DNA from: Octopus vulgaris
Lineage: Eukaryota
Assembly (NCBI GenBank): GCA_951406725.2
Contig: OX597815.1
Span: 178,746,001-178,810,000, forward strand
Length of the DNA stretch: 64,000 nucleotides
Reading direction: 5' to 3'
The notes under the pieces were generated by a model. The model was given only the letters and a program-made list of their open reading frames with translations, was not told where the DNA came from and did no database searches. A program made the translations under genes and the position numbers. Positions 5,640 through 53,563 of this stretch are shown in pieces; position 1 is the stretch's first letter, and every line of letters starts with the position of its first letter.

Positions 5640-5840
5640 CAGGACACCATGATAGATCGTTAGCTCCTAAACGCATTTTTTTCTCTCCTTGTTTTTTTCT
5701 GTGTATCTTTCTGTCAAAGAGCATAGGCTCGAAACGTAAAAGACTTTTTCTATTTCTATTCTTGAGCGCTATACTAATACATTTGTTTGTTTGTACTCCA
5801 CCTGCCTTTGTCTTTTGTTTATTTTCGTAAACTTTCCCTT
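5640..5840 (+). mobile_element. Penelope-like terminal-repeat remnant with variant hammerhead-like fold
   Basis: TCTTT-CTGTCAA-A-GAGC-atag-GCTC-GAAA-CGTA|AAAGA at 5706-5743; homologous copy at 33845-34022. Confidence 0.55.
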
Positions 5841-6179
5841 TATATATACATATACATATATATATACATATACATACATACATATATACATACATATACA
5901 TATACATATATATATATATACATACATATACATATATATATATACATACATATACATATACATATATATATATACATACATATACATATATATATATACA
6001 TACATATACATATACATATATACATACATATACATATATATATATACATACATATACATATACATATATATATATACATACATATACATATACATATATA
6101 TATATACATACATACACATATATATACATACATACATATATATGTATATATATATATATACAGCATACAACCTAATACC

Positions 6180-6212
<33 letters not shown>

Positions 6213-6552
6213 CATACATACATATATACATACATATACATACATACATATATACATACATATACATATACATATATATATATACATACATACATATACA
6301 TATACATACATACATATACATATACATACATACATATACATATACATACATACATATACATATACATATATACATACATATACATATATATATATACATA
6401 CATACATATACATATATATATATACATACATACATATACATATATACATACATACATATACATATATATATATACATACATACATATACACATACATATA
6501 TACATATATATGTATATATATATATATATATACAGCATACAACCTAATACCA
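5841..6552. repeat. Compound (TA)/(TACA)/(TACATA) microsatellite, about 700 bp
   Basis: Direct; source of the spurious YIYI ORFs. Confidence 0.97.
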
Positions 6553-6554
6553 TA

Positions 6555-6779
6555 GTGTGATCATTACCAGTGCCACCTGACTGGCTTCTGTGCTGGTGGT
6601 ATGTAAAAAGCACCCACTACACTCTCGAAGTGGTTGGCATTAGGAAGGGCATCTAGCTGTAGAAATTTTGCCAGATCAGATTGGAGCTTGGTGCAGCCTC
6701 CTGGCTTGCTAGTCCTCAATCAAATCGTCCAACCCATGCCAGCATGAAAAGCAGACGATGATGATGATGATGATGATGA
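6555..6779 (+). mobile_element. SINE family B
   Basis: Match to family. Confidence 0.85.
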
Positions 6780-7569
6780 GTAGTTTACCCTGAACTAACT
6801 TGGATGAATCAACAATAAAAATGTCACCAGCTCTTAAGTAGCTAGTCAAAAATATTTCTCTATTTATAAGACATGATGTGGCTAGGACAGAGAGAAATAG
6901 AAGCTACAGTGATGTGGAAGGTAAAAAAACCACATGATTTAATCGGCGCTCCGTCGGTTACGATGACAAGGGTTCCAATTGATCCGATCTGCGGAACAAC
7001 TTGCTCATGGAATTAAAGTGCAAGTGGCTGAGCACTCAACAAACACACGTTCCCTTAATTCTGTTTTCTCAGGGAGATTCAGCATGGCACAAAATGTGAC
7101 AAGGTGGGGCCCTTTCAATTACTGTGTGGCCTGGAGGAAGAAAAAATAAAGTATCCTGCTCAAAGGCAATGTGTCACTGGGAGCTGAATACTCTTACTAT
7201 TAAGCAACAATCTAGAAAAATGATGATGGAATGTCCAACTCAGGGCCAGCCCTAGGGTTGCTGGTGTCCTACACAAGCAGAATTTCAGGGTGTGCAAACT
7301 GACAGCCGTGGAAATTTCCTTGTCTTTGTGACGCCCTCCTTGCCTCGCTCCCACGACCTCCTGCCCTGGACGGACTGCCCAAGTTACCAGTACCTTGAGC
7401 TAGCCTTGTAAAGGTTTCAATAAAATGAAAGCACGACAGACCCAACCTACTGATCTAGGACAGTGCAAAGAAACCAAACACTCTAGCTGAAATCAGTTGC
7501 CCAACTGAAGTGCGCAGGATATGGAAAAAATTAGTAAAAAAGAGAAGATATATGCCAAACTTATTATCA

Positions 7570-7648
7570 TTATTCAGGTCACTGCCTGGAATCGAACTCG
7601 GAATCTTGGGGTTGGTAGTCCGCGCTCCTAACCACTACGCCATATGCT
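7570..7648 (-). mobile_element. Family E tRNA-like head
   Basis: Near-identical to 42700-42776; A and B boxes present; (AAT)n linker follows. Confidence 0.7.
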
Positions 7649-7707
7649 CATGGTCGGTGCCAGTACCACCTGACTGGTCTCATACCAGCGGCACGTAAAA
7701 AGCACCA

Positions 7708-7825
7708 CGGCATATGGCATAGTGGTTAAGAGTGCGGGCTACTAACCCAAGATTCCCAGTTCGATTCCAGGCAGTGACCATAATAATAATAATAATCATA
7801 ATAATAATCATAATAATAATAATGC
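7708..7825 (+). mobile_element. Family E tRNA-like head plus (AAT)n linker
   Basis: gggcatatggcatagtggttaagagtgcgggctactaacccaagattcccagttcgattcc, divergent to the 7570-7648 head. Confidence 0.7.
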
Positions 7826-7879
7826 TACATTGAGAAATATGCAAGTTTTCTATTTAGATAACTTAAGATTTCTGCTAAT

Positions 7880-10400
7880 AATCACTGGAGCACTCAGGTA
7901 CGGCACTAATTACTTCAGCGCCAATCTTGAGAAGCTGGGATTCGCAAAACCTAATCAAAAGGACTACAGCGATAAAAGGCACTGCCAACATATGTAAAAC
8001 AGACTTTAAGTTCTTCAGTGTGTATATAAGATCCAGATAATCAATGCTTGCCATGCTGTTTACCCATGTACACACGTAGCTATATGCACACGTGTAAACA
8101 CACACATACACATACAATGATGTATCGATTTCTATAAATCCTTCATGGCAAACAATGCTCGCGCAGCAAATAGACGAAATATTAAGTTTTGTAGAATCAG
8201 CGAATGTGACAGAGTCCTTTTTCACGGTCAGTTGACCTGCCAAACAAGGTGTGTGCATGTGTTGGTGTGTGTGAAAAGTTATTCGGCCATGAGCAGCAGG
8301 TAGTTTCTTTGATGAAAGTGGGGGGAGATATCGTATTCAATTTGTTTAGTAAAGAGATTTCGCAGCTATTATTAGCAGGGCAAACAACCATATTATATAC
8401 ATGTCGCAGTCGACACGTTGTGACACAATTATGTGTGTGCGCGCGCGCCTTCACCTCAGGTTCGTGGTAAAAGGTGATCCACCAAGTATATTATCAGAAA
8501 TAAAATTCAAGTAAAAAAAAAGTTCTATACATTTATATATTCTGAAATTTTTTCTTTTTAAATTTAAAAAATCAGGACTTCGGTTCATCTGGAATATATC
8601 CTCCACGCTCCAGTTTAATCGAATAACAAAATTTATTTTGCGCGTGGAGCGAATTAAAACGAACGAAAAAACTAAAAACTTTTCGATGTGTTTGAATAAA
8701 GTTCGGCCGACATAGAACTCAACGCTCTCGCTTCCTATTTGAACATTTACAACAGTAGCGACGAAACGAAAATTGGAAGAATAAGAAGAAAACAAAACAA
8801 TTCGAATAATCGGGCTTCCTACACTGTTTACAGTTTCCCATAAAAAAAAAAAAGTAAAGAAAAAGGTATTACTATCGAACAGTGGTTCCTAGAAAAGATA
8901 TATGTATACAATTTTCATGAACGGAAAACAAGGTATTTCGTTTTAATGGGTTGGTGCATAATTAACGACTATTTTATAATTTAATTTACAACAGTTTTAG
9001 AATACAAAAAAAAAAAAAAAAACGGTCGTTAATTATGCGATACTAATAATTTTTACTAAAAGTTTCGACCAATTCTGGAGAGTAAGGAACAAGATCCCAG
9101 AAAGTCGAGTTCTTGATCCCTTTCGCTTCACCTATGCTCTTATAAACTCTGGAAACGATGTAAACGTTAGGAAATCTCCACTTCCATAAAAAAACCAGTT
9201 CTTTTACTCGATAACAAACCAAATTATTCGGAACGTAGCTAAAGATGAATGAACGAGTGTTTACTATAAAGTAAATCTAATTCATTTGAAGAAGAAGAGA
9301 AACAAAACTTTTTTTTTTCCAAGACATACGCTGATTAGCGAAGGGGAAATAATTCTGAATAACTTTGTAATGTTGACCTAGAAAATAGTTTTACTTTTGG
9401 AGAAATACAAGGAATTCGGCGAAAGTATATTAAAAATAATAATAATAATAAACGTAAGAAAGAAAATACTCACAACAGCATAATATAGTGTCATGTATAA
9501 AATAAATCCTCATTGGTAATAAATACTAACCCTCCCCCTTTTTTTTTTTTGCTTTTCGTGTACTGTATGCCTTCCTTATTTTAATTTGAATTTTTTTTTT
9601 TACATGGTATGTAATTCCATTATTTACAAGTCACTTGGAAAATCACAAGCTGTCGAACAGCTTGTTCTCTGTCTCCACACGATGGGACGGAAGATTTTCT
9701 TGCTAAAATTACGATGTTTGTGATTGTTTCTTTCTTCGGCATATTAATAAGTCACGAGTAAGAGTTTGTTGTATGATAGACATATATATACATATGTATA
9801 TATAAATATATATATGTAAGTATGTATGTATGTATGTGTGTGCGCACGCGCGTATATGATTGCTTTCTGTTCTAAAGTCTATTCAGTCAGGGTCACCAGG
9901 ACACAATCAACGGCCATAATACACCTTCAATGAATGACTAACGTACACGCACATTCGAAACCATAAACACCCACCCGTTATCACGAGGTGGAAGAGGAGA
10001 GGAGCGTGTGTGAGAACTATAACAAAAGATCAGGAGTTTAAAACCCACTGCGTTGTCCTAGAAAGAAAAAAAAACAACATTACCACCCACGAAAAGCAGA
10101 TGATTTTTACTATATTCAGGGGTGCGGGAGGGAGACAAAAAAAAAAGTGTGTGAAAGACAGAAAACATTATTTAACTTCGGCCAAACTACGCAAACGTCA
10201 AGGAAAATGGTAATAAATATTTCCTTGGCTCCGATGTGTCTCTTGACGGAAAAAAAGAAAAACTTAATTCTTGATAGAACGCCAATCGATACACAAGTAA
10301 ACATTCATAACTTGATCAAAGTTCTGATTTCTGGCAGATCGGTGAACTGACGCAGAAGACAGGCTCTGCCCAGAAACATGGCACAAAAAGAAAAATAAAA
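7880..10400 (-). promoter_or_regulatory. CpG-richer, SINE-free block: putative alternative promoter / 5' exons
   Basis: Many CpGs; minus-strand donors at 9473 (GTGAGT), 8454 (GTGAAG) and 7913 (GTAATT); acceptor at 8237. Confidence 0.4.
8945..9049. mobile_element. Tiny mariner-like MITE
   Basis: ggttggtgcataattaacgac ... gtcgttaattatgcgatac inverted ends. Confidence 0.5.
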
Positions 10401-10525
10401 GAAGAGAAAGGCAGCAGTAAATTTGAAAGGGTTAATTCATAAAGCCCATAATCCAATACTTTATTCAGTTCACGTCTCCCACCTGGGAAGAGGAGTGGCT
10501 ATGGGTATAAAGTTTTAACAAATTC

Positions 10526-10920
10526 CGCAGGAGTGGCTGTGTGGTAAGTGGCTTGCTAACCAACCACATGGTTCCGGGTTCAGTCCCACTGCGTGGGATC
10601 TTGGGCAAGTGTCTTCTGCTATAGCCCCGGGCCGACCAATGCCTTGTGAGTGGATTTGGTAGACGGAAACTGAAAGAAGCCTGTCGTATATATGTATATA
10701 TATATATATATAAGCGTGTGTGTATGTGTTTGTCCCCCTAGCATTGCTTGACAACCGATGCTGGTGTGTTTACGTCCCCGTCACTTAGCGGTTTGGCAAA
10801 AGAGACCGATAGAATAAGTACTGGGCTTACAAAGAATAAGTCCCGGGGTCGATTTGCTCGACTAAAGGTGGTGCTCCAGTCAAATGACTGAAACAAGTAA
10901 AAGAGAGTAAAAGAGAAAAG
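10526..10920 (+). mobile_element. SINE family A
   Basis: Full-length match to 2001-2400. Confidence 0.9.
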
Positions 10921-11424
10921 AGATATGATTTCAAATGAGTGAACTGGAACCACTTGTTTTAACTACCTGTTAAGTCTCATACAAAAAGACAATGGGGTCT
11001 CTCTCGAGCAAAGTCCTTTTTGTCTCGTCTTCTTCTTCCTGAAGATCGCCAATTAACAAGGCAAAACAAAATTTTAACAACTGGCAAGCGTAATCAAAAT
11101 TTAGGAATTCTGCTTGTCAGTTATATTCAACATGGTCCGGGGTACTCCGTCGGTTACAAGTGTTCTAGTTGATTCGATCGGCAGAACAGCCCGTTCGTGA
11201 AATTAACGTACAACTGACTTAGCACTCCGCAGACACACGTACCCTTAACTTATAGTTCTTGGGGAGATTCAGCGTGACACATCGAATGCTACAAGGTTTG
11301 GCCCGCAGAACTACAGGCTGCAACTCATTCTCGTTGGACTGGAGCAACATGAAACACACGCGACCCCATGACCGGGAACCGGAGCAACATGAAACACGCG
11401 ACCCCATGATCGGGAACCGAATAC

Positions 11425-11841
11425 CTATTTCTTTACTACCCACAAGGGGCTAAACACAGAGAGGACAAACAAGGACAGATAAACGAATTAAGTCGATTAC
11501 ATCGACCTCAGTGCATAACTGGTACTTAATTTATCGACCCCGAAAGGATGAAAGGCAAAGTCGACCTCGGCGGAATTTGAACTCAGAACGTAACGGCAGA
11601 TGAAATACCTATTTCTTTACTACCCACAAAGGGCTAAACACAGAAAGGACAAACAAGGACAGACAAACGGATTAAGTTGATTATATCGACCTCAGTGCGT
11701 AACTGGTACTTATTTAATCGACTCCGACAGGATGAAAGGCAAAGTCGGCCTCAGCGGAATTTGAACTCAGAATGTAGAGGAAGACGAAATACTGCTAAGC
11801 ATTTCGCTCGGCGTGCTAATGATTCTGCCAGCTCACTGCCC
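11425..11841 (-). mobile_element. SINE family C tandem dimer (Nin/Deu-like core gtcgactttgcctttcatcctttcggggtcgat)
   Basis: Two units joined at gaaatacc; 15-bp TSD tcgggaaccgaatac. Confidence 0.85.
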
Positions 11842-12410
11842 TCGGGAACCGAATACTGTCACTGCTAAGCCACCAGCCTTCACACACACACATAGTCTCT
11901 CTCTCTCTCTCAACTGTAAACCACAAACCAAGATGGCTTTGTGGTATTTAGTGTTGAAGTATCATTGTCTACAACTGAAACAGTTCATTGTTATTAAACC
12001 GAACCCTTCCTAACCTAACTTCAGAACTTCGATAAATAAAATATGTTCCCTTAAGATATTTAGTGATAATTTTTTCTACTCTAGGCGCACGGCCTGAAAT
12101 TTGGGGGGCATGGGACCAGTCGATTAGTTCGACACCAGTATGCAACTGGTACTTAATTTATCAACCCCGAAAGGATGAAAGGCAAAGTCGACCTTGGCAG
12201 ATTTTACTCCCTTAAAGTATTTCGTGATAATGACACACTAAAATGGACAGGTCAGCTGGGTCACATTGTATGCATGTGTGCATATACAACAGAGGTTCTC
12301 AAACTTTTCGGGCCACTGCCCCTCATGGCCACATAACACCCTCAGTGCCCCCACCCCTATTTTTATGTTTAAAGAAATATTTTATATTTCACTAATTTAT
12401 ATTATACTAT

Positions 12411-12767
12411 ACTCTTTTACTTGTTTCAGTCATTTGACTGCGGCCATGCTGGAGCACTGCCTTTAATCTTATTCTATCGGTCTCTTTTGCCGAACTGCTA
12501 AGTAACGGGGACATAAACAAACCAGCATCGGTTGTCAAGCAATGCTAGGGGGACAAACACAGATACACAAACACACACACGCATATATATATACATATAT
12601 ACGACGGGCTTCTTTCAGTTTCTGTCTACCAAATCCACTCACAAGGCTTTGGTCGGCCCGAGGCTATAGTAGAAGACACTTGCCCAAGGTGCCACGCAGT
12701 GGGACTGAACCCGGAACCATGTGGTTCGTAAGCAAGCTACTTACCACACAGCCACCCCTGCGCCTAT
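12411..12767 (-). mobile_element. SINE family A
   Basis: Reverse-complement match. Confidence 0.9.
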
Positions 12768-12823
12768 GAATCATTTGATATTAAATATTATATATTTTGT
12801 CTACAATACAATAATAATATTGA

Positions 12824-13250
12824 AGTAAAGATTGTTTGCCAATATAACATGGCAGTCCTGGTTTAGGACGAATGTTGCTGTAATTTACCTCCAGGAGACA
12901 TCGTATCCAGCTGGCTATACGACACGATCCGTGTCCTTATATTTTCGAACAAGGGCATTTAGCACCCCCACTCAGCTCAAAACAATATCTGTGTATTGCA
13001 ATTTCCGGGTTATTTCGCAATACAGATGCTGTTTTGAGCTGAGTGGGGGTGCTAAATTCCCTTGTTCGAAAATATAAGGACACGGATCGTGTCGTATAGC
13101 CAGCTGGAGACCTTGTTTCCTAGGGCTAAATTACAGCAACATTCATCCTAAACCAGGACCGCCATGTTATGTTGGCAAACAATCTTTACTCCAAAGTACT
13201 GCTACTGAATATCTATCATTGTGAGATTAACAAATAGTAATTTTCTAATA
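12824..13250. repeat. Foldback element with about 175-bp arms plus an asymmetric right tail
   Basis: agtaaagattgtttgccaa...ttggcaaacaatctttact; second copy at 30862-31198 has the same tail. Confidence 0.85.
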
Positions 13251-13413
13251 ATAATATTATAATAAATTCATAGCGTCCCCCAAATCACTGCATTCCTCCC
13301 AACGCCTCCTTTTTCTCTACTGCCCCCAGGCACCCGCGCCCACTGGGGGGAATGGTAGCCACCACTTTGAGAATCTGTGATTTATAATAATGAAAATGAT
13401 GTTGAAACCGATA

Positions 13414-13780
13414 TAGGCGCAGGAGTGGCTGTGTGGTAAGTAGCTTGCTTACCAACCACATGGTTCCGGGTTCAGTCCCACTGCGTGGCATGTTGGGCAA
13501 GTGTCTTCTACTATAGCCTCGGGCCGACCAAAGCATTGTGAGTGGATTTGGTAGACGGAAACTGTGTGTGTATGTTTGTGTGTCTGTGTTTGTCCCCCCC
13601 AACATCGCTTGACAACCGATGCTGGTGTGTTTACGTCCCCATCACTTAGCGGTTCGGCAATAGAGACCGATAGAATAAGTACTGGGCTTACAAAGAATAA
13701 GTCCTGGGGTTGGGTTGCTCGACTAAAGGCAGTGCTCCAGCATGGCTGCAGTCAACTGACTGAAACAAGTAAAAGAGTAT
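13414..13780 (+). mobile_element. SINE family A
   Basis: Match to family. Confidence 0.9.
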
Positions 13781-17278: not shown

Positions 17279-17302
17279 ATGTAACTCTCTCTCTCTCTCA
17301 AT

Positions 17303-22605: not shown

Positions 22606-22793
22606 AATATTTTTGATTTGGTCTTAATTGAATAACATACCAAGTACAGGACAACATTGCTCTACTATTCTATATTTTTGAGATGAGGAATTATGTACAT
22701 TATTTACCATCCTACAGTTCTATATTTAAGAGATGAGGAATTATTTACATTATTTACATTTGACGGATATTTGTCCTCATCTTGTTTGTTGCT

Positions 22794-22836
22794 AACACGT
22801 TTTGGCTGATATACCCTCCAGCCTTCATCAGGTGTC
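22794..22836 (-). ncRNA. Minimal hammerhead motif (family E), inverted partner, G12 mutated
   Basis: Reverse complement GACAC-CTGATGA-A-GGCTG...CAGCC-AAAA-CGTGTT. Confidence 0.6.
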
Positions 22837-22892
22837 TTGGGGTAATTGAAAAATACCTTAGGAATGAGAATCCAGGTTCAAAATTTCTGAAA

Positions 22893-22935
22893 GACACCTG
22901 ATGAAGGCTGGAGGGTATATCAGCCGAAAAGTGTT
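22893..22935 (+). ncRNA. Minimal hammerhead motif (family E), cleavage region deleted
   Basis: GACAC-CTGATGA-A-GGCTG-gagggtatat-CAGCC-GAAA-a-GTGTT. Confidence 0.7.
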
Positions 22936-23348
22936 AACAACAAGCAAGATGAGGACAAATATCCGTCAAATGTAAATAATGTAACACTTCATCCTGTATC
23001 CACAGTCACCTCAGGGCGTCCAAGATTCACCAATACATGGCACTTTAGGTGAATGCTTTTGTTTTACAATTTGTCTTTTTTTGTATTTTAACCACACATT
23101 TTAATCTGAATGTGGGGAATGAAAACTATGCTGAAACTTGTCATGTGTGTGTGTGTGTGTGTGTGTGTCTAAATTTCAGTATATTATTAAAGGATATAAT
23201 CACTGCTGAGGGAAAAAAAAAACTGGTGTTCTTCCAACAAAAACCATCTAATAGACACTCCATTACCATCCTCACCATCAGAAGTACTGTGAAGCCATGA
23301 TTGGAAATCTATATCCAACAACATTCTTGTTCAAAAATTATGATATAA

Positions 23349-23740: not shown

Positions 23741-25195
23741 TAAATAAGTAAACATGGAAAAAAAGAGAAGCATTCTAAACTTCCAATAAAACCAACTTCA
23801 AGAAATACCTGTAGCTCAAAATTTCACAGTTAATTAATGAACAACAAGATTCTTTATAAAATCACAGAAATTCTTGATCAGCAACGCCAACAGCCTGAAC
23901 CAACATTTAGCATCTGACTTGTGTTTTCCTCGATGTCATTATGGTAAAGCATTGCAGGAATTTTATAGTTTGATCAGAAACCACTTAAAGGAATATTTGA
24001 ATAGTCCGTCTGTCTTGTGCAGATGGACTGTTCAAATATTTCTCCAATCGAGTAATTTACACAGAGAATGCAAAGAACTCGGCAGCGGGGAGAAAAGAAA
24101 AACCATCTATTTTCAGACAATGTAAAGAGAAGACGTATCTGTTAATGGTCGAAACGGTTTGAGGAAATTACGGAATTGTTTGCTTTTGTCGACGAAAACA
24201 ATCATTTGAACTGATAATCATTTATATTCAGCCATGATATAACGAGAGAGCCGGTAGTAATATGGCTGAAGACAACAGCAAACTACTAAATGATATTTAG
24301 GGCATTTGTACATTGTGTTCAAGAATGTAAAACATAGCAAATAATTGATTAACACACACTGAAGAATTAGGACTAAAAAAAAAAAAAAAAAAAAATGGAA
24401 TAATTATTAATATGACAGGCTGCAGTTGGGAGTACCAGTGCCTAGGGCTAGCATTTAATTCTGGTTTCTAGACAACCACTCCCATGAAAACAATTACTGT
24501 TAAGTCAATAGCTCCAAGCAGAATAACTAAGCAAAGAGAAAAATCTGAACATTAAAAAAAAAAATTATATGAGAAGGAAACAGGGAAAGATTTTTATGTT
24601 TATATATAAAAAAAAAAAAGGAATTTTCACTTAAAACAAAAAAATCAAAATTATGGATTTTTTTCCTCTTAGGTTCTGGTACTCAAGTTATAAGATTCTG
24701 TGTTTTAATGAGCCTTGAACAGGCATTCCTATACCTCATTCCTGTCCCATCATACTCACTGTATTGCTAATTGCCAAAAGAATGCCACCATATCAAATGC
24801 CATATCAGCATAGAATTGATGTACTAAAACCAATGCCTCCTATTACCTAACCCAGTGACCTATGAACCCATTTGATTCCCACTTTACTTGGTTCGACCCT
24901 CACACACATTCAATGCTTTCAAAAATCCTATCATATTTTTATGATTAAATTTTATTTAGCAATTGTATTAAAAAACTGCTAAAGTATTTTGTGTATCAGA
25001 AGAATGACCAGTTTATCAGACATAGATTTAAGCAGCAAAATCTTATGTGGACTCTCAAGGGTCATGTGGACACCAAATGAAAAACCCTATGAATAAGATA
25101 CAAATATAGCACATGGACATTTCCAGAGTTTTTATCACAATGTGATAATGTAACTGCCCCATCTCACCTCTACCACACTAAAAATCACCAATATA

Positions 25196-25516
25196 TTAGA
25201 ATCAAAGGGCATTAGAGTCAACCTAACTAAAACCAAAGTCCTAACAAGTAGGAAGGCAGACAAACCACAAATCCCTTCAGGTAGATGGCCCTGCTCGATC
25301 TGTAGTAGAGGTGTAAGTAGAAACTCTATAAGATGTACCCCGTGTAAGCTATGGACATATAAGAAGTGCAGCAATATCAAAGGAAGGCTAACTGGGAAGA
25401 TAGTTTTTGCATGTGGCAGATGCTCAGGAGCAATAAACACTGAAAATGTGCAGAGAACAACTTCTGCTACATTCCAAGGAGAAAAACTAGAAGTAGTTGA
25501 TAGCTTCTGTTACCTA
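25196..25516 (+). pseudogene. RTE-clade LINE reverse transcriptase fragment with embedded PHD-like finger
   Basis: Open frame LESKGIRVNLTKTKVL...WPCSICSRGVSRNSIRCTPCKLWTYKKCS...FACGRC...LEVVDSFCYL. Confidence 0.8.
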
Positions 25517-25980
25517 AAATACGTTAGGAATGAGAACCCAGGTTCGAAATTTCCCTAAGACACCTGATGAAGGCTGGAGGGTATATAAGCCGAAACATTG
25601 TGTGAACAACAAACAAGATCATCATTATCATCATCATCGTTTGACGGCCGTTTTCCATGCTAGCATGGGTTGAATGGTTCAACTGGGGTCTGGGGAGCCA
25701 GTAGGCTGCACCAGGCCCAGTCTGATCTGGCAGTGTTTCTACAGCTGGATGCCCTTCCTAACGCCAACCACTCCGTGAGTGTAGTGGGCGCTTTTTACGT
25801 GCCACTTGCACGGGGGCCAGACGAGGCTGGCAACGGCCACAATCGGATGGTGCTTTTTACATGCCACCAGCACAGAGGCCAGTCGGGGCGGCGCTGGCAA
25901 CGGCCACGTTCAGATGGTTCTCTTATGTGCCACCAGCACTGGTACCACAGAGGACAAATATTCGTCAAATGTAAATAATG
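25517..25980 (+). mobile_element. Family E copy interrupted by a family B SINE (25620-25946)
   Basis: The E sequence ...aacaaacaagat | gaggacaaatattcgtcaaatg resumes after the B insert. Confidence 0.7.
25559..25604 (+). ncRNA. Minimal hammerhead motif (family E), most intact copy
   Basis: GACAC-CTGATGA-A-GGCT...AGCC-GAAA-CATT|GTGTG. Confidence 0.7.
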
Positions 25981-29141: not shown

Positions 29142-29360
29142 CTCCTCAAGCACAGCGGGACGTTCTGGGATCCAGGGTTCTTTGAATGGGCAGGGACTAT
29201 GCGGAACTGGTGCAGGAAGCAGCCCGGGTCTTTGCAGTCACAGCATTTATGCACAATGCTGTGACTGCAAAGACCCGGGCTGCTTCCTGCACCAGTTCCG
29301 CATAGTCCCTGCCCATTCAAAGAACCCTGGATCCCAGAACGTCCCGCTGTGCTTGAGGAG
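29142..29360. repeat. Perfect palindrome, 106-bp arms and 7-nt loop, at the 5' end of a family B SINE
   Basis: 29142-29247 is the exact reverse complement of 29255-29360. Confidence 0.95.
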
Positions 29361-30861: not shown

Positions 30862-31198
30862 CCTTGGAGTAAAGATATTTGCCAACATAACATGGCAGTC
30901 CTGGATTAGGACGAATATTGCTGTGATTTAGCCCAGAAATGTTCCTGTAATAACCTGGAAATCATGATACACAGATTTTGTTTTGAGCTGAGTAGGGGTG
31001 CTAGATTCCCTTGTTCGAAAATATAAGGACACAGATCATGTTGTATAACCAGCTGGAGACAATGTCTCCTGGGGCTCAATTACAGCAACATTCGTCCTAA
31101 ACCAGGAGTGCCATGTTATGTTGGCAAACGATCTTTACTCCAAAGTACTGTTGCTGAATACCTCTCATTGTGAGATTTACAAATAGTAATTTTCTAAT
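30862..31198. repeat. Second copy of the 12.8 kb foldback element (left arm partly deleted)
   Basis: Direct sequence similarity to 12824-13250. Confidence 0.8.
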
Positions 31199-32800: not shown

Positions 32801-33844
32801 GGGTTTCTTTCAGTTTCTGTCTACCAAACCCACTCACAAGGCTTTGGTCAGCCTGAAGCTATAGTAGAAGATACTTGCCCAAGGTGCCACGCAGTGGGAC
32901 TGAACCTGGAACCTTGTGGTTGGTAAGCAAGCTACTTACCGCACAGTTGTTCTGAAATTATTGTATCATCAGTTTTTCATATATTCACACCCACAAATGC
33001 ATGCACTCACACATTCACACAACAGTCAGCATACATACATCATACTTACTAAACTAGAAATTCCACACTTGTATCATTTACGGATATTTGTATCATTTAC
33101 GAACACAATCCATTCGTTTGATTATATTTTCAAGTGAAATATGAATAAAGTGTTTGAATAAGCCTTCCTACTTAAGTTTTCTGTCTTTGGCCAATACTGT
33201 AATGCTATAATGTTAAGCAAAGCTGGATATGACACAAGCTGTTACACAGAGCTTTGAAACCTCTCTCTGGAAGTTTACTTCAAATTGTAATTATATTTGT
33301 GTACGAACTCAACTGCAACAACAGAACAAAACGAATATATCATCCTCAGAGTACAAGTTTGGATTACAAGTTACTTACCTATGACTACATCCATGAAATT
33401 ATAACACCATCAATTCTTTTATACATACATACATTCATACATACATACATACACATATATGATTGCTATCCACTCATGACCAAGAAAGACCATTGTTGAC
33501 CTTTAGGAACATTGTGCGCCCTAGGACTAATTTATATTTTGCATTGGCTAATGAGCCCTGTTCTTGACAAGCATACACAACTGCGAACCAAGCTCTCCCC
33601 ATTCACTACACAAGCAGTGTACTTTTGCACACCACACTTAAATTCTTCCTGAAGAATACATGCTCTCTCAAAAGTGTTGACCCCACTCCTTAACTTAACT
33701 TGCTTCCTTCATCTGTGGTGATGACTGACATAGCTCTCCCAGTCGGTTTTCTGCATATCACAGGCCTTTAATGAGGATTTGACAGTCCTTAAATCGCAGC
33801 CTTGGTTTCTGCCAGGGTCTCTTTCCACTAACAAGTTCCCCCGG

Positions 33845-34022
33845 TAGCCACTACACACATTTTTTTTCTCTCTCCTTGTTTTTTTTTTTCTGCGTCCCTT
33901 TCTGTAGGAGAGCATAGACTCGAAACGTAAAAGACTTTTTCGATTCCTGAACGTTATACTAATACATCTGTTTGTTTTCTACACCACCTGCCTTCGTCTT
34001 TTGTTTTTTTCGTGAACTCTCC
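33845..34022 (+). mobile_element. Second copy of the 5640-5840 family, about 130 bp upstream of the GPCR ATG
   Basis: Shared gagcatag(g/a)ctcgaaacgtaaaagacttttt...atactaataca...cacctgcc. Confidence 0.6.
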
Positions 34023-34155
34023 ACATACATACATACATATACAAACATAGACACACACAGACACACATATATATATATACATATATATATACATATCCAC
34101 AATTAACGTATAGGCATTATACTCACTAAACTAGAACCTACACACTGGTTTCAAC

Positions 34156-35082
34156 ATGAATGCAACCCATTTGTCTGATCCTGTTTTGTTTACAAGATTA
34201 CTTGCTTTTAGTATCATACCCTTCTTCCTGATAGTGGGACTCGTTGGTAACATGTTTGTGATATATATTTATGCCCGACAGTCCCAGAAAAGCAATGTAG
34301 AGGCCTTCATCCTTGTGCTAGCAGTGAATGATCTGATTGGATGTATCTTTGGACTGCCTCTGGAAATGGCTGAACTTTACCCTGCAATACAATCAGAATA
34401 TTTGTGTAAATCATACAAGTTTGTTGTCTTCGCCTACTGTGTCGTGTCGTCCTTGATTCTGTTTACCATTGCTGTCGAAAGATTCAGAAAAATATGTTGT
34501 CCACATGGCAAACAAATTACTCCGAAACTACGGCAACCTCTTATCATTTTCATAACTGTAATATCAGTTGCATTGGTACTGCCAGTTCTGTTTTACTTTG
34601 AAGGTTTTCCCTTCATCCACGAAAACACGATATACATGATATGTGGCTGTGACCTCAGAAGGTCACCTCTCTGGTATTATGCTCTGGCAACATTAATTAT
34701 TTACATTATGCTTCTCTTGACCATGACTGTACTTTATTTGTTTGTTCAGAAGACCATTACTCAGCGTTTCAGGAAAAGGCAAGGTAAAGAAGCAGCTTCG
34801 CAAACAAGAACGAATCAATCGCACACAAACCTTGTTCTTGTCTCAATCTCCATTTTGTTTTTTGTCAGTTTTTCACTAACCCTTATCTTCTTTGTCGTAT
34901 ATCCATACTTCAAAGATTCTAACTTGTTGCAGATATTCAAGGTAGTTTTCTATCGTACTTGGATACTGAACTCATCTTTAAACCCCATGGTGTATGGATT
35001 TTGTAACAAAATATTCCGCAAAAGTTTTGCAAATATATTTACTAGGAGTAAAAGTGCCTTTGAAATGGAAGAGAATCTTTAA
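34156..35082 (+). CDS. Intronless rhodopsin-like (class A) GPCR, orphan/peptide-receptor-like, 308 aa
   Basis: Seven hydrophobic segments. N-glycosylation site MNAT; TM1 GLVGN; TM2 LAVNDL; TM3 Cys (LCK) and IAVERF (E/DRY equivalent); ECL2 Cys; TM7 NSSLNPMVY (NPxxY); helix 8 FCNKIFRKSF. AATAAA at about 35204. Confidence 0.95.
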   Translation: MNATHLSDPVLFTRLLAFSIIPFFLIVGLVGNMFVIYIYARQSQKSNVEAFILVLAVNDLIGCIFGLPLEMAELYPAIQSEYLCKSYKFVVFAYCVVSSLILFTIAVERFRKICCPHGKQITPKLRQPLIIFITVISVALVLPVLFYFEGFPFIHENTIYMICGCDLRRSPLWYYALATLIIYIMLLLTMTVLYLFVQKTITQRFRKRQGKEAASQTRTNQSHTNLVLVSISILFFVSFSLTLIFFVVYPYFKDSNLLQIFKVVFYRTWILNSSLNPMVYGFCNKIFRKSFANIFTRSKSAFEMEENL

Positions 35083-42063: not shown

Positions 42064-42518
42064 TTTTAATATCTGGGCCAGATCCAAACCTAGATATTGT
42101 TAGGGGGCTACGCCAAAAGTAAAACAAATCAACAAAAGAAAAATTCATTCATAGAAATAAGAGTTTCGAAGGCCACAATGAGGCCCTTGGGGGCCAAGGT
42201 AGAAAACGACTGTCCTAGATACACTCAACATGAAAAAATTGATAGGATGGTTAGGGCAGGAATACCTATCTGTTCAAGAGCTTACCTGAGGTTAAACAAC
42301 AGGCAGGAGAAATGATTGATAAATACAGGTTAGAATGGACAGAATGTCTCATTTTTAAACAGATAGGGCCAAAGGGCAAGGATGCTAAGATAGTTTTGTG
42401 ACATTTCATGATGCCACAATTTATCTTCTCCACGTGACACAAAGTAACCACGGTATCTTGTTCCAGTTACATCCCATCTCACATGACATTGACCTATGTA
42501 CCATTCATTTAAATAATA

Positions 42519-42776
42519 CAGTTCTAGATTTAAGAGATGAGGATTTATTTACATTATTAACATATGACAGATATTTGTCCTCATCTTGTTTGTTGTTGAA
42601 ACAGAATTTCAGCTGATATACCCTCCAGCCTTCATAAGGCGTCTTGAGGAAATTTCAAACCTGGGTTATAATTCCTAAGGTATTTTTTGATATTATTATT
42701 CAGGTCACTGCCTGGAATTGAACTCGAAATCTTGGGATTAGTAGCCCGCGCTCTTAACCACTACACCATATGCCCG
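42519..42776 (-). mobile_element. Family E: tRNA-headed SINE-like element carrying a (decayed) hammerhead and Penelope-like tail
   Basis: Reverse complement: tRNA-like head (A box TGGTGTAGTGG, B box GAGTTCAATTCC), (AAT)n linker, then the same body as 22847-22983 and 25517-25980 with core CTTATGA-A-GGCTG..CAGCT-GAAA. Confidence 0.75.
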
Positions 42777-46789: not shown

Positions 46790-47168
46790 GGCAATCTTTC
46801 GTCTCTAGTAGACCTTTCCGTCGATTTCCGTAAAAAAATTTTTTTTTTTTGCATATGGGCTTGCGGAAACTTTTGAAGTAATGAGAGCGAAAGAGACTAA
46901 GAGAAAGCGATTGTATGACGAGGGAAGTTCTTTTGAAGTTACCGTGCATGGGAGCATTGATGTACATGTGTGTGTGTGTTTGATGGGGTGTGGGAGACAG
47001 ATAGTATGTTGTGTAAGTGAAGTGCTTCTGTTAGTGTGTGAAGAGACAGAGAGAGTAATGCGTCTCTTTCGCTCTCATTACTTCAATAGTTCCCGCAAGC
47101 CCATATGTAAAAAAAAAAATTTTTTTACGGAAATCGACGGAAAGGTCTACTAGAGACGAAAGATCGCC
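46790..47168. mobile_element. MITE-like element with about 107-bp terminal inverted repeats
   Basis: ggcaatctttcgtctctagtagacc...ggtctactagagacgaaagatcgcc. Confidence 0.8.
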
Positions 47169-49742
47169 ATAGGCTTTCTTTCGTTTTGAGTCGATCTCTG
47201 TAAACATTGTCCTCGGTAATTTCTAAATAATTTCTTACACTATTTAAAATATATAAGTCGGCAAATTTGAATGGAAGGGCTGTACTCAACAATATTGACC
47301 CAGTTCAATGCCGGTATCTGATTTAATCGATCGAAAAGCAATGATTAAAGTCGAATCAACAATCCCCCCGACGGGATGTGGACGCAGGGTTAGAAGCTGA
47401 TAAGACGACCATTCATTCAAACTGTAGACAACGACCATATGATTGAACAAAGGGTGAAGTGAGATAATCGAATTGTGATTTGTCTTTTTTTTATTTTAAT
47501 CACCAATAAATATAGTCAACGAAAAACTGATGATAGGAGGGGGAAAATAAAAGATAAGCAACAGACAGACACGAGACATGTTTAGATAACCAATTAAAAA
47601 TACACAACATCGCAACAGTTGACAATTTGTCATTCTGAAATCACCTCAAGGTTTTCACATACAGAATTTAACTGGAAAAAAAAAAAAACATGATTTTTAA
47701 TTGTAGATATTTTTCTACAAAAAGATTAAAAACCACAACCTGATTAAGGGAGATTGTTGCGACGTTCCAAGGATAAAAATCATAACATATTCACGAGCAT
47801 TATTATATACACTGGAATAATAAACATATGGATCGGACACTAGCGTTCAGGGATATAATAAAGGTGCTCTATTGACTTTTAGCGGTCCCAATTTCTTCTT
47901 CTTATTATTATTATTTGTTAGTGGGGTGGGGTGTACTTTGCCGTATTTCTTCCGGCTGTTGACATTTTGAGTTCGAATCCCGCCGAGGTCAACATTACCT
48001 TTCATTCCACCAGGATCGATAAAATAAAGTAATAAGTAGGTAGTATGGCCGATGAAATCGACTAATCCCTTCCATTTACTGACCTTAAATCTAAATCAGA
48101 TATTATTATTATTATTATTATTTACCAACAATTTTAAAAAGACAATTGCAAAAAGGATTTTAAGAGGGTACCGCATACTAATGTGCTACAAAATGCTTTT
48201 ATAAAAACAAAGATAGGTGTGGGCGTAGAAAGTCAGTGGTACCAATGGACAGGGGTTAATCTCTTCTAACCACAGGGTTAAAAGAGATTTGATCTCTTCT
48301 AACCCTAACTGGTACGAAGTGGAGGGGCAATAGTAACAGACGAAACTGAAGCAGAACGATGTCTTGAGGTGTCAACTGAGTCATACTAATCTGGGCTACA
48401 TCCCTATTGTTTTTTTGTTGGATGAGAGGGTTATTAAGTACAACATCCGCTCTTTTATGAGGGGAAAGGAGTCGGTCGGGTATAATGGCATTCTTTTACA
48501 ACTTATTTTTATCAACGGCAAAAATAAAAGTGATGAAAATGTAAAGGGGTTCGAATTGGGGATGCGAGACTGACAGGACTTTAATAATGGTGTTACAACG
48601 TACGTGGACACACACAGACACACACACAAAAATACACTATACATATTTATATGTGTGTGTGTTTGTGTCATATACACACATACACATGTACATGAAGGTA
48701 TATGGCATACTGTAAAATCCTCTGAGTTGTAAAGGTAGATGGAGGATTAAAGTAAAATAGAAGCAATTAATGACATCCTAAAAGGTTTCAACGAAAAAAG
48801 AAAAAAAAAATAGAGGCGAAACAGTTTTATTGTCGAGAATTAAAGACCACCCAGCTTTCGCCTATCGCAATGAATAAATCATGATGATTTTATTTTTATT
48901 CAGATTAAGATTCACAAAAAGCTGTTCACCACTTTATTATTGATGGTACTTCTATCGACCCTACAAGAGATTAAATGTAGCTTGTGGTTGAGATATGAAC
49001 ATAGAAATGAGATGGTGACTGGAATTTTAAGGGAGAGAGAGGAACTGACAAATGATGCCTATCATTTCCAAATTCTTCTTGGGTATATATTAGTTAAATG
49101 ACTAAATTGGTTCAAAGCTAAAACCGAAACAGAGGGGGTAAATCCGTTTGCTAACCATAGAATTCCTTTCAGCGCCTCAAATTCATAAATGAAGGAAAAT
49201 GCGACTGGGTGGTGTTCACTCCTTCATTTAACCAGCAGCGAAAATAAACGAGGAAATCTTTAAAGACACACAATTTGTCAATAATTCAGATAAATATTCA
49301 AGGTTGTTCGTGTTAAATTTAAACTTGTTTTTAAACTTCAGATTTAATATGAAAGTTTGATGGGGTTTTTTTTTTTTTGGTTTTTTTTGTTAATGATTAC
49401 AAACAAAATATACAAATACCCACATTAAAAAAGAAATACGTACATATTTTTGAAATATTGATAGAACGAGAAAGAAACATGGTTATTAAATATTCATACG
49501 TGGAATGACATTTAATGTATGTGTCGAGAGAAAAGTTTATATATATTCGATTCAGATAAACAGATATAAACAAACAGGCAGATTATAATATTCATTACAT
49601 ACACGCAAAGAGATTAGAGAGAAAAGCGGCTGAAATGGAAATGAATGAATACGACACGAATTTGATGAGAGAAAATTGAAGTAGGAAAGAATTAAGGCTG
49701 AAAGAAAGTAATGACTATTTATTAGTATTAGTATAATCTTAC

Positions 49743-50150
49743 CTTTCAAGTAATTTAGGATTTCCTAGTAGAGTATGAGGACAGATATTTGCAGTACATT
49801 TAATAGAGTGCTTCGTCTGCAACTGTCACTCAACGGGGGTTTAGCTTCGAGTCGTAGTATTAGCAGCAGCGACGGAACGAATAGCAGGAAATGTACTATT
49901 CACCCGAGCAAATAAATAAGCTATTTTACGAGGAAGCTTCTATCAATGTGTTTGCGGGGATTGGGTTATCGACACGGCGGCAGTAGTAAAGCGTTTTTAG
50001 TGAAGGTTTTTCACAAATAGGCAATACGCAAATAAAGAAATTCACCGAAAAAACATTTCGGTTGTTCGGGTAAATAAAATATCGAAGCAGAAGCTACTAT
50101 CATAAATATCGTGAACCGAGTTATCTGCACGATATTATTAATAGTCATAG
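49743..50150 (-). promoter_or_regulatory. Putative first (non-coding) exon / promoter region of a minus-strand transcript
   Basis: CpG-retaining, SINE-free; strong donor AAG|GTAAGA at 49742. Confidence 0.4.
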
Positions 50151-50227
50151 ATTTTGGAGTCAATTTTACTTTTTTTTTTACTGGAGGAAAAGTAAGAGAT
50201 AAGTTTACCCCTCTTTCCTGTTTCCAT

Positions 50228-50322
50228 TCTTTCTCCCTCCCTCTCTCTCTCTCTCTCTCCCTCTCTCTTCTCTGCCTGTCTTTCTTCCTTTCTTTCTTTC
50301 TCTCTCTCTCTCTCTCGTCCCT
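50228..50322. repeat. (CT)n/(CTTT)n pyrimidine tract
   Basis: Direct; borders the CpG-richer block. Confidence 0.9.
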
Positions 50323-50681
50323 CATTCCCTATATATTTATCTGACCTCCTACATGTTTTCTTGGGGCTTCTTTTTTTTTCCATAAAACTTTTCGTTTCTA
50401 AATTAATTAAAACTCTAGAATAAGACTAGTATGTATCAAAAAAGAAGTCAAAATTTATAGGGTGTGGCAAAAAATCTTTTCATTGCAAAATTCTAAGTAA
50501 ATTATATTTTCTATCGAAAACGTCTAGTAGATAGGAGGGTGAAAACAGTCCTCGAAATACAATCTTATATATGAACACATACACACACACATTCACACAC
50601 ATATATAAAGAAAGATACACATACTCAAGCAGAATGAAATGTAGATAAACATAAATTTCACATATATATCAATCACAGTTT

Positions 50682-50814
50682 GTTTTCAACAGCTGTTTCA
50701 TTAAGAATAAGCACAATTAAGTCTACAGTTACACCATTAAGATAGACAATTAATGAAATTTAATTGAAATTAAATTAGTTTAGAGTAATGTTCATCCCAA
50801 ATCATCAGGAATAC
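50682..50814 (-). ncRNA. Type I hammerhead ribozyme with long stem II
   Basis: Reverse complement reads GTATTC-CTGATGA-[TTTGGGATGAACAT...GTGCTTATTCTTAAT]-GAAA-CAGCTG-TT|GAAAAC; same ACAGCTGT palindromic stem III as the 52.2 kb motif. Confidence 0.65.
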
Positions 50815-51077
50815 TACCAGCTATATCTGCTTTAATAAACATAAACCATTGCTGGTTTAAATACACAACACTGAGAGAATCATATATATATATATACAAA
50901 TTGAGATAGGGGTTGTAAATGCAACCCTCCATGGGATAACATATATCCAATATACTGCTAGTGAAGTACCCAACAAAGTTAATACATAAATGTTAATGAT
51001 TGCGATGCAATTAATTCATTTACTGTATTATATGGGCAAAGGTAAAATGATTTACCACAAATTACTAATACAAGATA

Positions 51078-51937
51078 CAGGGTGAGATGAATATAATTTT
51101 ATCTAAATTACGCAAAAATGAAAATAACACTGACATCTCATTCTAACAGATATATTTACCAAAATTACATAAAAATATCTTGAAACACTAAAGAGTAAAA
51201 TTATTTAATAAAATCGCCATTGGCTTCAACCACAAACTCCAAATGACTTCGGAATATTCTGCAGCTCTTCTGGACGGTCTCCTTGTTTGTTGGTGAATGC
51301 TGCCATAATCCTTGCTTTCAGTTCATCTTTGTTGTTACAAGGAGTTTTGTTGGTCTCTCGCTCAACTACACCCCACACATAATAATCGAGGGGGTTGCAG
51401 ACTTGAGAGTTAGGTGGCCAGATGCTAGGAGTGATGTGGTTGCAGAAATTATCTGTTAACCATGACTGAGTTCTCCTGCTTGTGTGGCATGGTGCAGAGT
51501 CCTGTAGCCAGACATAGGGTCTTCCAGCAGGCTCCCTCTTGACCCAAGGCAGCATTATCTCCTCCAGGCACTTGATGTAGACCTCTGTGTCGAGTGTGAA
51601 GCCATGTGGGAAGATGAATGGAGGCATAACATCACCATCACTAGTGATGACCCTAAACACCATGATTTAGACTAGATGGTTGATTTTTATCACTCTCTGT
51701 ACATGTCCTCAAACTGACACCTAAACACTGAAATGTTCGTATTGGAGCTTCTAGCACAAATGCTAAGCTGTACAGCATGCCGTTTCCAAATTTCTAGCAG
51801 AGTGAATTGCATCATGGTGCTGTTTTTCTCACAGATGGTACTCAACTGACCCTACTATACTGTGTAGTTGACAAAATCAAAAACCAGCAATGTGCAGGCG
51901 CAGAATTACAAATATAAAATGGCAACAATTTACCCTG
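51078..51937 (-). mobile_element. Internally deleted Tc1/mariner DD37D (maT) transposon
   Basis: TA-CAGGGT...ACCCTG-TA ends. ORF 51226-51663 has QDSAPCH...WPPNS..CNPLD with 37 residues between the 2nd and 3rd D. Confidence 0.85.
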
Positions 51938-52171
51938 TATATATATAAAGAATATGAGGGGTATAGTTCACTTGTGATCTAAATGAAGAGGCATGCTGGG
52001 TAAGTGCTATAGTTGGTCAACCATTAGGTTCCAAGATCATAGCTAAGGCTGGATCTAGGGATCTGTGTTAGGGTTCCGTTACAGCATGTATATATTATAT
52101 TAGAGGAAAAATCAAAACCAAAGCAGAATGAGTATCTCAAGAATAATTTAATTAGTGTAAGGTGAATTTGA

Positions 52172-52248
52172 AGTCTTACAGCTGTTTCTGGGATAACCTG
52201 ACTGGTTGGTTAGCATGTCTGTACACTGGGTATTCCGTCGTCAGAGAC
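52172..52248 (-). ncRNA. Type I hammerhead ribozyme (Penelope-type) with intact core
   Basis: Reverse complement reads GTCT-CTGACGA-[CGGAATACC...GGTTATCCCA]-GAAA-CAGCTG-TA|AGAC: stem I GTCT/AGAC, canonical CUGANGA and GAAA, palindromic stem III ACAGCTGT, GUA cleavage triplet. Confidence 0.8.
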
Positions 52249-52406
52249 AAGGTATGAATATTTTAGACAGGGAAAATTTACAGTTTACAAGGAATAAAAT
52301 TCACAGTTTATAAGGAATAAAGCAGAAGAATAAAGTGGTAAAATACATATTTATGTGGAGATGTATAAACAGATATATACATGCATACATATATACATAT
52401 ACATAC

Positions 52407-52443
<37 letters not shown>

Positions 52444-53337
52444 GTATATATGTATAAGTGTATGTATGTACAAATATATGTATGCATGTATATATGTGAG
52501 TTTCACTTTTAATAACAGTTTCACTATGTAAATATTATATACATAGTGGAAGTATTAATAGTGAAACTATTAAAACTGAAATTATTATCTCGCTTGACAA
52601 TAGAAATGTTATTGTTTCACTTTTGACATGTAATACTGAAATAGTATAAGAGATAAGAGATTGTTCCAGGCTCACATGAGGCAAAAAGTTGAACATTTTT
52701 GAGGCCCGTGACACTACATGGACCCTAAGTAAGGCATGTGCAAAATTTGAATGAAATCAGTTGGGTAGTTCTTGAATTTTAGTGATGCACACATACAGAC
52801 AGATAGACAGTCAGACAGACAGACATTCTCAGTTTTATATATATATATAGATTACTCCTAAAAATTGAAAACTTTCATGCACCACAAAAATTACACTTAT
52901 TTACCATGCTTATATTATCCTTACCATCATTTAACGTCTGCTTTCCATATTGGCATATATACCACTTGTGTGAGTGTGTGTGTATGTGTGTGTGCATCTA
53001 AATTTTATTTTTGCTACTTACTGATTAAACGTCTATAAATGAAACTTTAACCCAAAGGGAAGTACTATTTTCTTGTTTTTATTTTCAAAATATGAGGCAC
53101 AACACTGCAAAATGAAAGCAAAGTGAATTATGGTTGACATTTGAAATTATTACTGCATCACTGGTTTTCACTGACACTATACCTTATTCATTCATCCATT
53201 TCAAACAGCACCATGAAATCATTTCAAATTTTAGCTATAGTTATTATATAGTGGAGATGTACTTGTATAGCAAGTGACCTGATCTGAGATCGTGTGCTGA
53301 AACGAAAACAATTGCTGCGTGGAAGGTGTTTATAAGC

Positions 53338-53563
53338 CATTTAAGAAACACACAAAAATCTGTTAGATTCACTTCAACATTTAAATTTAATTTGCCAAAA
53401 TATTTTCATTGCTTTCAGACCGCGACCTGTTCACTGACAAAATCCCATGCAGCATGGAATTTTGTCAGTGAACAGGTCGCGGTCTCAAAGCGCCGAAAAT
53501 ATTTTGACAAATTAAATTTAAATGTTTAAGTGAATCTGATGGTTTTTGTGTGTTTCTTAAATG
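53338..53563. repeat. About 110-bp-arm imperfect palindrome (inverted dimer carrying two hammerhead motifs)
   Basis: catttaagaaacacac...gtgtgtttcttaaatg, centre near 53450. Confidence 0.85.
53461..53511 (+). ncRNA. Minimal type I hammerhead with G3:C8 swapped core
   Basis: TTTGTCA-GTGAACA-GGTCGC(loop)GCGCC-GAAA-ATATT-T|TGACAAA: 7-bp stem I, GUGAACA core (compensatory C3G/G8C), AATATT palindromic stem III. An inverted second copy lies at 53391-53441. Confidence 0.65.

What the first reader, a model, noticed from the sequence alone, without database searches (positions are those of the whole stretch)
5706..53511. About five unrelated repeat families in 64 kb converge on the minimal hammerhead architecture
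Motifs at 5706/33897, 22794/22893/25559/42600, 50682, 52172 and 53391/53461 (possibly 13030/30975) share no obvious flanking homology between families. All show stem I, core, stem II, GAAA and a short self-complementary stem III (AACGTT inferred, ACGT, ACAGCTGT, AATATT). Several form asymmetric head-to-head inverted repeats. No PLE ORF is visible here, so these would be a large non-autonomous PLE/retrozyme community with diversified catalytic cores (inference).
Basis: partly seen in the sequence, partly recalled or inferred. Interest (0 to 1): 0.75.

Follow-up and report, generated by a model that had tools for sequence, protein, structure and literature searches.

The report
Penelope retroelement ends with varied hammerheads
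The repeats are mostly decayed, cut-off tail ends of several Penelope-type jumping genes that each carry a small hammerhead-shaped RNA motif, likely inherited rather than invented separately; this is a known pattern, and the only unusual parts are two families with altered core letters whose ability to cut is untested.

Summary
Real at family level, weak at copy level, largely known. Six repeat families (A–F) fit the minimal type-I hammerhead of Penelope-like elements (PLEs): 77 of 178 genomic copies pass a descriptor. Only 2 window copies do (shuffles: mean 0.27; 9 of 300 reach 2). The cited 13030/30975 motif is not the hammerhead; that family's core is cut off in the window. Elsewhere in the genome, A, B and E (D more weakly) sit directly behind PLE RT/GIY-YIG reading frames. 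They are therefore 5′-truncated 3′ ends of protein-coding PLEs, likely alike by descent, not a convergent non-autonomous community. Only F (352-bp tandem unit) looks retrozyme-like; C is unlinked. The head-to-head repeats are the known inverted-insertion by-product and are predicted to bury the motif in a hairpin. Unusual details: E has a family-wide G3–C8 core swap (99 of 100 listed among 3,250 matches), B a family-wide U6, and A a tRNA-like head inside its terminal repeat. The scan already noted the G3–C8 swap and the tRNA head on other DNA of this genome. Cleavage is untested; E copies derive from uncut RNA.

The parts
5641..5845 (+). Family B: 5′-truncated 3′ end of a PLE. Core at 5711 (family core CUGUCGA, U6); this copy has G8→A, which breaks the 3–8 pair. 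Followed by a (TA)n array.
33842..34022 (+). Family B, CUGUAGA subfamily. Core at 33902; A9→G and a helix II mismatch.
22740..22847 (-). Family A, inverted arm. Core at 22831; G12→A and a 3-nt loss at the cleavage triplet.
22845..22984 (+). Family A, direct arm. Core at 22898; helix III change and the same 3-nt loss. Pairs with the left arm as one hairpin (−91.9 kcal/mol).
25516..25619 (+). Family A, best-kept window copy. Core at 25564; one mismatch in helix III and one in helix II.
42505..42776 (-). Family A, complete terminal repeat: tRNA-like head (42692–42773), short (AAT)n, decayed hammerhead (core at 42638, G5→U) and tail.
7566..7790 (.).
50633..50820 (-). Family C (old, about 75% identity between copies). 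Canonical core at 50808, long AT-rich helix II domain, 8-nt palindrome. Passes the relaxed descriptor; not linked to a reading frame.
52079..52343 (-). Family D: truncated 3′ end of a likely old PLE. Core at 52244 intact, helix II weakened.
53254..53455 (-). Family E, 202-nt copy with the 55-nt tail. G3–C8 core at 53434; 3′ strand of helix II mutated.
53447..53562 (+). Family E, inverted partner. G3–C8 core at 53468, 7-bp helix I; passes the descriptor. The pair folds as one hairpin (−109.6 kcal/mol).
12820..13246 (.). Family F, head-to-head pair (12820–13016 −, 13022–13246 +). Both are truncated inside the hammerhead; the core strand is missing.
30864..31195 (.). Family F, head-to-head pair (30864–30934 −, 30949–31195 + with tail). 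Core strand missing.

Best explanation
These repeats are 5′-truncated 3′ ends of several Penelope-like retroelement lineages (A, B and E sit behind RT/GIY-YIG frames; D weakly; C and F unlinked), each carrying a minimal hammerhead motif likely inherited from the terminal repeat of a common PLE ancestor and predicted, not shown, to cut weakly as a dimer. Shown: the family motifs, the links to reading frames, two discrete 3′ ends about 55 nt apart in E and F, variable 5′ truncation in B and D, and adjacent inverted partners. Inferred: the element's RT primes at one of two 3′ sites and stops early, leaving only the terminal repeat, often with an inverted second copy. Copies then decay neutrally (much of it at CpG). 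Lineages turn over their non-coding ends, so flanks lose all likeness while source elements keep the fold and tolerate core drift (G3–C8, U3–A8, U6, U4→C). Two motifs on one RNA from a tandem element would pair through the palindromic helix III, probably helped by the element's protein. The head-to-head window pairs cannot do this, because their motifs lie on opposite strands and would fold into long hairpins.
For: Links to frames. A: hammerhead within 700 nt 3′ of the frame's end in 12 of 20 loci, tRNA-like head in 16 of 20; the frame matches an RVT_1+GIY-YIG protein at E 1e-12. B: same-strand RT/GIY-YIG remnant about 0.8 kb upstream in 12 of 30 loci. E: the same frame 1–1.2 kb upstream in 3 of 10 E-bearing regions, Pfam GIY-YIG over cut-off in 2 of 3. 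D: same-strand remnants in 3 of 12 long loci (E 3e-7 to 7e-11), a fourth by shared DNA. Protein-coding PLEs of this genome end in the same kind of motif. B's sister family has A6 with U4→C and a C-G→G-C swap in helix I. In E, shared non-CpG variants fall at 1 of 42 paired or core positions against 12 of 54 free ones. Literature: PMC4209133, PMC8557442, PMC11167929.
Against: C and F were not linked to a frame. D's link is weak. The loci showing the links were chosen by upstream sequence, so they do not give the share of linked copies. Homology of the hammerheads between families is inferred by parsimony, not by alignment. No cleavage evidence: only 1 of 70 E copies starts at the cut site, and that one is an internal deletion; RNA reads show no pile-up of starts or ends. 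None of 6 full-length E copies in the unbiased set has a clear target-site duplication; two were seen by eye in the biased set. Pfam found no RT domain in the E or A frames. The variants are not independent, and the 49 of 70 copies aligned were pre-filtered on the core region.
Confidence: 0.87

Rival explanations
1. All families are stand-alone non-autonomous retrozymes/SINEs that cut themselves out of tandem transcripts and move as small circles.
For: F is a 352-bp unit with head-to-tail neighbours in 13 of 30 loci and no frame found. Short E copies share a fixed 5′ end (36 of 70 within 6 nt), with a non-native G before it in 15 of 26, as if copied from a short capped RNA. A's tRNA-like head could drive short transcripts. 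These features make trans-mobilised short RNAs plausible for F, E and A.
Against: A, B and E, and weakly D, continue upstream into PLE frames. E copies keep the sequence 5′ of the cut site. Described retrozymes carry canonical type-I hammerheads, in arrays of up to 62 units (PMC7229834, passages read).
Confidence: 0.08
2. The families evolved the hammerhead fold independently (true convergence).
For: No sequence likeness between the A–F flanks. The motif is small. Helix sizes and palindromes differ.
Against: Each linked family lies at the position where PLEs carry this motif (PMC4209133; PMC8557442 passages: canonical hammerheads present in PLEs other than Naiad/Chlamys). All share PLE-type traits (unpaired base after A9, palindromic helix III). 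A sister family shows stepwise drift.
Confidence: 0.03
3. Chance look-alikes read into palindromic repeats or MITEs.
For: In the window only 2 copies pass, p about 0.01–0.03 with post-hoc descriptors. No Rfam hit. The 13030/30975 motif is such a look-alike.
Against: 77 of 178 genomic copies pass, against 0.27 hits per 128 kb of shuffled sequence. The motifs lie behind PLE frames.
Confidence: 0.02

Closest known systems
Minimal type-I hammerheads in pLTRs of metazoan PLEs (Cervera and de la Peña 2014, PMC4209133; results, discussion and start of methods read, supplements not seen)
   Same: Short helix I, unpaired base after A9, palindromic minimal helix III, many unrelated families per genome, mostly single truncated copies, opposite-strand pairs 100–700 bp apart, a family-level 3–8 covariation (U3–A8).
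   Different: G3–C8 (family E) and U6 (family B) are not in the text I read. C, D and F have 8-nt palindromes and a mismatch at the base of helix II.
Insertion units of endonuclease-positive PLEs (Craig et al. 2021, PMC8557442, passages) and Poseidon PAc (Frangieh et al. 2024, PMC11167929, passages)
   Same: 5′ truncation, partial tandems, adjacent inverted copy, 3′ tail from two RT start sites, microsatellite targets. The hammerhead is protein-assisted and dispensable for insertion; the engineered C3G/G8C double change partly rescues cleavage.
   Different: Tails here are about 55 nt (30–40 described). The swap is natural and family-wide. Family A has a tRNA-like head inside the terminal repeat.
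Non-LTR retrozymes (PMC7229834, passages; bioRxiv 10.64898/2026.07.22.740005, abstract, introduction and part of methods)
   Same: Family F: 352-bp non-coding tandem unit with a type-I hammerhead; retrozymes are proposed to be PLE derivatives.
   Different: F carries a minimal motif and forms only dimers/trimers with inverted partners in the loci seen; circular RNA not tested. A, B, D and E are not retrozymes.
Natural core variants (Perreault et al. 2011, PMC3088659, section 8 read)
   Same: U3–A8 covariation, a position-6 variant (A6C, k_obs under 0.1 per min), a U10.1·U11.1 mismatch.
   Different: G3–C8 and A6U are not named in that section; supplementary figures were not seen.

Membership tests
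Minimal PLE hammerhead | Core N3-U-G-A-N-N8-A … GAA with a 3–8 Watson-Crick pair | tested here: met
   Family level: A, C, D, F canonical; E G3–C8; B keeps 3–8 but has U6. Most window copies fail.
Minimal PLE hammerhead | Helix I and II plus a palindromic A15.1–U16.1 helix III and a non-G cleavage base | tested here: met
   77 of 178 genomic copies pass; D's helix II is irregular at its base.
Minimal PLE hammerhead | Stem covariation within families | tested here: inconclusive
   Little within families. One compensatory helix I swap between B and its sister; E variants avoid paired positions. Palindrome variants in D and F can be explained by CpG decay.
Minimal PLE hammerhead | Self-cleavage as a dimer | not testable with these tools
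   No genomic or read signal of cleavage in E.
EN+ Penelope-like element 3′ end | Located 3′ of an RT + GIY-YIG frame on the same strand | tested here: met
   A, B, E, D weakly. Not shown for C or F.
EN+ Penelope-like element 3′ end | Two discrete 3′ ends (tail), 5′ truncation, adjacent inverted copy | tested here: met
   E: 29 ends at offsets 146–155 and 40 at 202 or beyond, of 70. F likewise. Inverted partners: A 29/30 (biased by the query), D 11/30, E 17/30, F 23/30, C 1/29, B 0/30.
EN+ Penelope-like element 3′ end | Variable-length target-site duplication | tested here: inconclusive
   Two seen by eye; none clear in 6 unbiased full E copies.
Non-LTR retrozyme | Non-coding head-to-tail units of 150–450 bp, each with a hammerhead | tested here: met
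   Met for F only: 352 bp, tandem neighbour in 13 of 30 loci. A, B, D and E continue into coding elements.
Non-LTR retrozyme | Expressed as circular RNA | not tested
   No reads were laid on F.
tRNA-derived SINE (family A) | tRNA-like head with A/B boxes, independent of a coding element | tested here: not met
   Head is tRNA-like (ARAGORN only at a lowered threshold, 9 of 18 heads; none at default) but lies just 3′ of the PLE frame in 16 of 20 loci.

The most novel reading that the evidence does not exclude
One genome holds PLE lineages that have naturally sampled three Watson-Crick forms of the hammerhead's 3–8 core pair (C–G, U–A, G–C) plus U6 and C4 cores, all kept by selection for cleavage. 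Family E would be a natural, active G3–C8 ribozyme, and solo terminal repeats of E (short capped RNA) and A (tRNA-type promoter) would have become SINE-like elements mobilised by PLE proteins.
Probability: 0.35. Interest if true: 0.55.

Novelty: new variant of a known kind. Interest (0 to 1): 0.35.

Why it matters
The main claim, many unrelated minimal hammerhead families in an animal genome, is established. What remains useful is a ready-made natural series of core variants with thousands of copies. The G3–C8 swap was a laboratory test of the active hammerhead structure; finding it fixed in a PLE lineage suggests that the fold, and perhaps catalysis, is under selection. That bears on the open question of what PLE hammerheads do. 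Standard descriptors miss such cores, so genome counts of hammerheads would be too low.

Tried and rejected
Rfam scan: no hammerhead family. The strict descriptor found nothing in the window. The first PLE family followed showed no hammerhead and no link to A–F. Fifty GIY-YIG loci carried other hammerhead families, with A–F only as neighbours. No parent was found for C (one inverted RT fragment abuts a copy in L456) or F; no upstream-specific search was run for either. A pile-up of 5′ ends at the cut site was tested for E only and was absent. No RNA holder was listed for E. Laid RNA reads (runs labelled as another organism, about 6% of two runs) came from both directions without start or end peaks; they pool many loci, so they are not evidence about one element. 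E's fixed 5′ end could be an initiator or a 3′ splice site (branch-point-like motif, pyrimidine tract, AG). I favour a transcript start because inverted partners join right there and no common upstream exon appears; this is not settled. Reading A as a separate SINE was rejected. Lünse et al. 2017, the most likely place for a prior G3–C8 report, is not held. Searches for a natural G3–C8 core and for PLE-mobilised tRNA SINEs found none in listings; no supplements were read. PDB and Pfam gave no match for the A-linked frame.
Full report
Setting. The window lies in a 2.8-Gb genome of 227 contigs. Its repeats look octopus-like; that label is recalled and also used in earlier scan notes. Clade names such as Neptune or Poseidon are recalled from motif shape and were not tested.

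Observation. All cited strings are present. They belong to six repeat families: A (22794, 22893, 25559, 42600), B (5706, 33897), C (50682), D (52172), E (53391, 53461) and F (13030, 30975). First-look candidate counts were 3892, 2084, 171, 1116, 1501 and 2111; these are not copy numbers. Representatives of A–F show no mutual match better than E 0.07. Rfam gives no hammerhead family among 111 matches. A strict minimal-hammerhead descriptor finds 0 window sites. Relaxed ones find 2 (53468+, 50808−) against 0.09 in block-wise dinucleotide shuffles (2 of 200 reach 2) and 0.27 for a broader version (9 of 300). The descriptors were written after seeing the motifs. The other eight A, B, D and E copies carry lesions in the core, helix II or helix III.

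Family level. Among the best genomic copies the broad descriptor passes A 11/30, B 17/30, C 6/28, D 15/30, E 21/30 and F 7/30, that is 77 of 178; a few loci overlap or are segmental duplicates. A is canonical with an ACGU palindrome. B has CUGUCGA or CUGUAGA, so U6 is fixed while position 7 varies. C and D have canonical cores, long helix II domains, 8-nt palindromes and a mismatch at the base of helix II. E has GUGAACA with a 7-bp helix I and a 5-bp helix II. A 23-base pattern leaving positions 3 and 8 free (C or G) has 3,250 exact matches; 99 of the 100 listed read G3/C8, one C3/C8, none C3/G8. F's cited motif is not a hammerhead; the real one lies upstream and is truncated in all four window pieces.

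Origin. No PLE frame is in the window, but longer copies elsewhere link the families to coding elements. B lies about 0.8 kb behind an RT/GIY-YIG remnant on the same strand in 12 of 30 loci chosen by its upstream sequence. E lies 1–1.2 kb behind one shared frame in 3 of 10 E-bearing regions. Pfam GIY-YIG passes cut-off in 2 of 3 frames; the RT part rests on a weak match (E 1e-8) and a visible YVDD motif. A follows a frame with similarity to an RVT_1+GIY-YIG protein (E 1e-12); of 20 loci, 16 have a tRNA-like head and 12 the hammerhead within 700 nt. The window copy at 42505–42776 is such a complete terminal repeat. D has same-strand PLE remnants upstream in 3 of 12 long loci and shared DNA in a fourth. 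C and F were not linked. F is a 352-bp unit with tandem neighbours in 13 of 30 loci, the one retrozyme-like case. Other coding PLEs in the genome end in the same type of motif: U3–A8 in a young family with intact 781-aa frames (17 rows, 14 distinct places among 50 loci scanned) and U4→C in two others. B has a sister family, 75% alike over 88 nt, with A6, C4 and a swapped helix I pair. This points to descent with drift, not convergence.

Insertion anatomy. E and F have two discrete 3′ ends about 55 nt apart. B and D have variable 5′ ends. Inverted partners occur in A 29/30 (the query was itself a pair), D 11/30, E 17/30, F 23/30, C 1/29 and B 0/30 loci. These match the described PLE insertion unit (PMC8557442, passages) and the two RT start sites (PMC11167929, passages). 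The window pairs fold as single hairpins of −109.6 and −91.9 kcal/mol that absorb the motif, and their motifs lie on opposite strands, so they are by-products rather than working dimers. Target duplications were inconclusive.

Function. By analogy the motif would cut as a dimer, weakly and with protein help (PMC4209133; PMC6765202 passages; PMC11167929). For E, shared non-CpG variants fall at 1 of 42 constrained against 12 of 54 free positions (Fisher p 0.006). That value is overstated, because loop changes are linked and 49 of 70 copies were pre-filtered on the core region. Against a role in making the template: 36 of 70 unbiased E copies start 13–18 nt before helix I and only one, an internal deletion, at the cut site. 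Laid RNA reads show no end peaks. A non-native G precedes the fixed start in 15 of 26 copies, which may be a copied cap (inference).

Prior knowledge. Multiple families per genome, single truncated copies, opposite-strand pairs and U3–A8 are in PMC4209133; 16 families in one coral are in PMC7229834 (passages). A6C and a U·U base of helix II are in PMC3088659 (section 8). G3–C8 appeared only as an engineered change in the passages read. Four searches found no natural case, but Lünse et al. 2017 was not available and no supplements were seen. PMC6685494 (passages) gave nothing on PLE-mobilised SINEs. The scan had already noted G3–C8 cores in this and other genomes and the tRNA-headed repeat; the latter note prompted my test of A.

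Verdict. Real, mostly known, partly misread: new variant of a known kind, interest 0.35.

Noticed in passing
window 34135-35079 (+): Intact single-frame 315-aa rhodopsin-family GPCR (Pfam 7tm_1, E 4e-27), right after the second B copy.
   Followed up: partly
L242/L262 and related loci: Young PLE family with many intact 781-aa RT+GIY-YIG frames; its 3′ hammerhead has a U3–A8 core and a 6-nt palindrome.
   Followed up: partly
L267, L270, L274; L211, L217, L219, L228: Two further coding PLE families whose hammerheads read C at position 4 in most copies.
   Followed up: partly
L264:4400-4650 (−): Sister family of B with A6, C4 and a compensatory helix I pair.
   Followed up: partly
L491:8640-8665 and the family E 5′ boundary: Branch-point-like motif, pyrimidine tract and AG end exactly at the common 5′ end of short E copies; either a splice acceptor or an initiator.
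   Followed up: partly
RNA runs X21, X22 laid on L104: More A>G and T>C variant places in RNA reads than in contig runs; could be editing of the hairpins, but reads pool many loci.
   Followed up: no
window 25154-25555 (+) and 51229-51666 (−): Fragments resembling a LINE zinc-finger region and a mariner-type transposase (recalled; Pfam gave only weak or no hits). The A copy at 25516 interrupts the first.
   Followed up: no
window 29218-29284, 57834-57953: Further short inverted repeats without hammerhead features.
   Followed up: no
window 25950-25980 (+): Isolated 31-nt 3′ fragment of family A, 330 nt from the 25516 copy.
   Followed up: no
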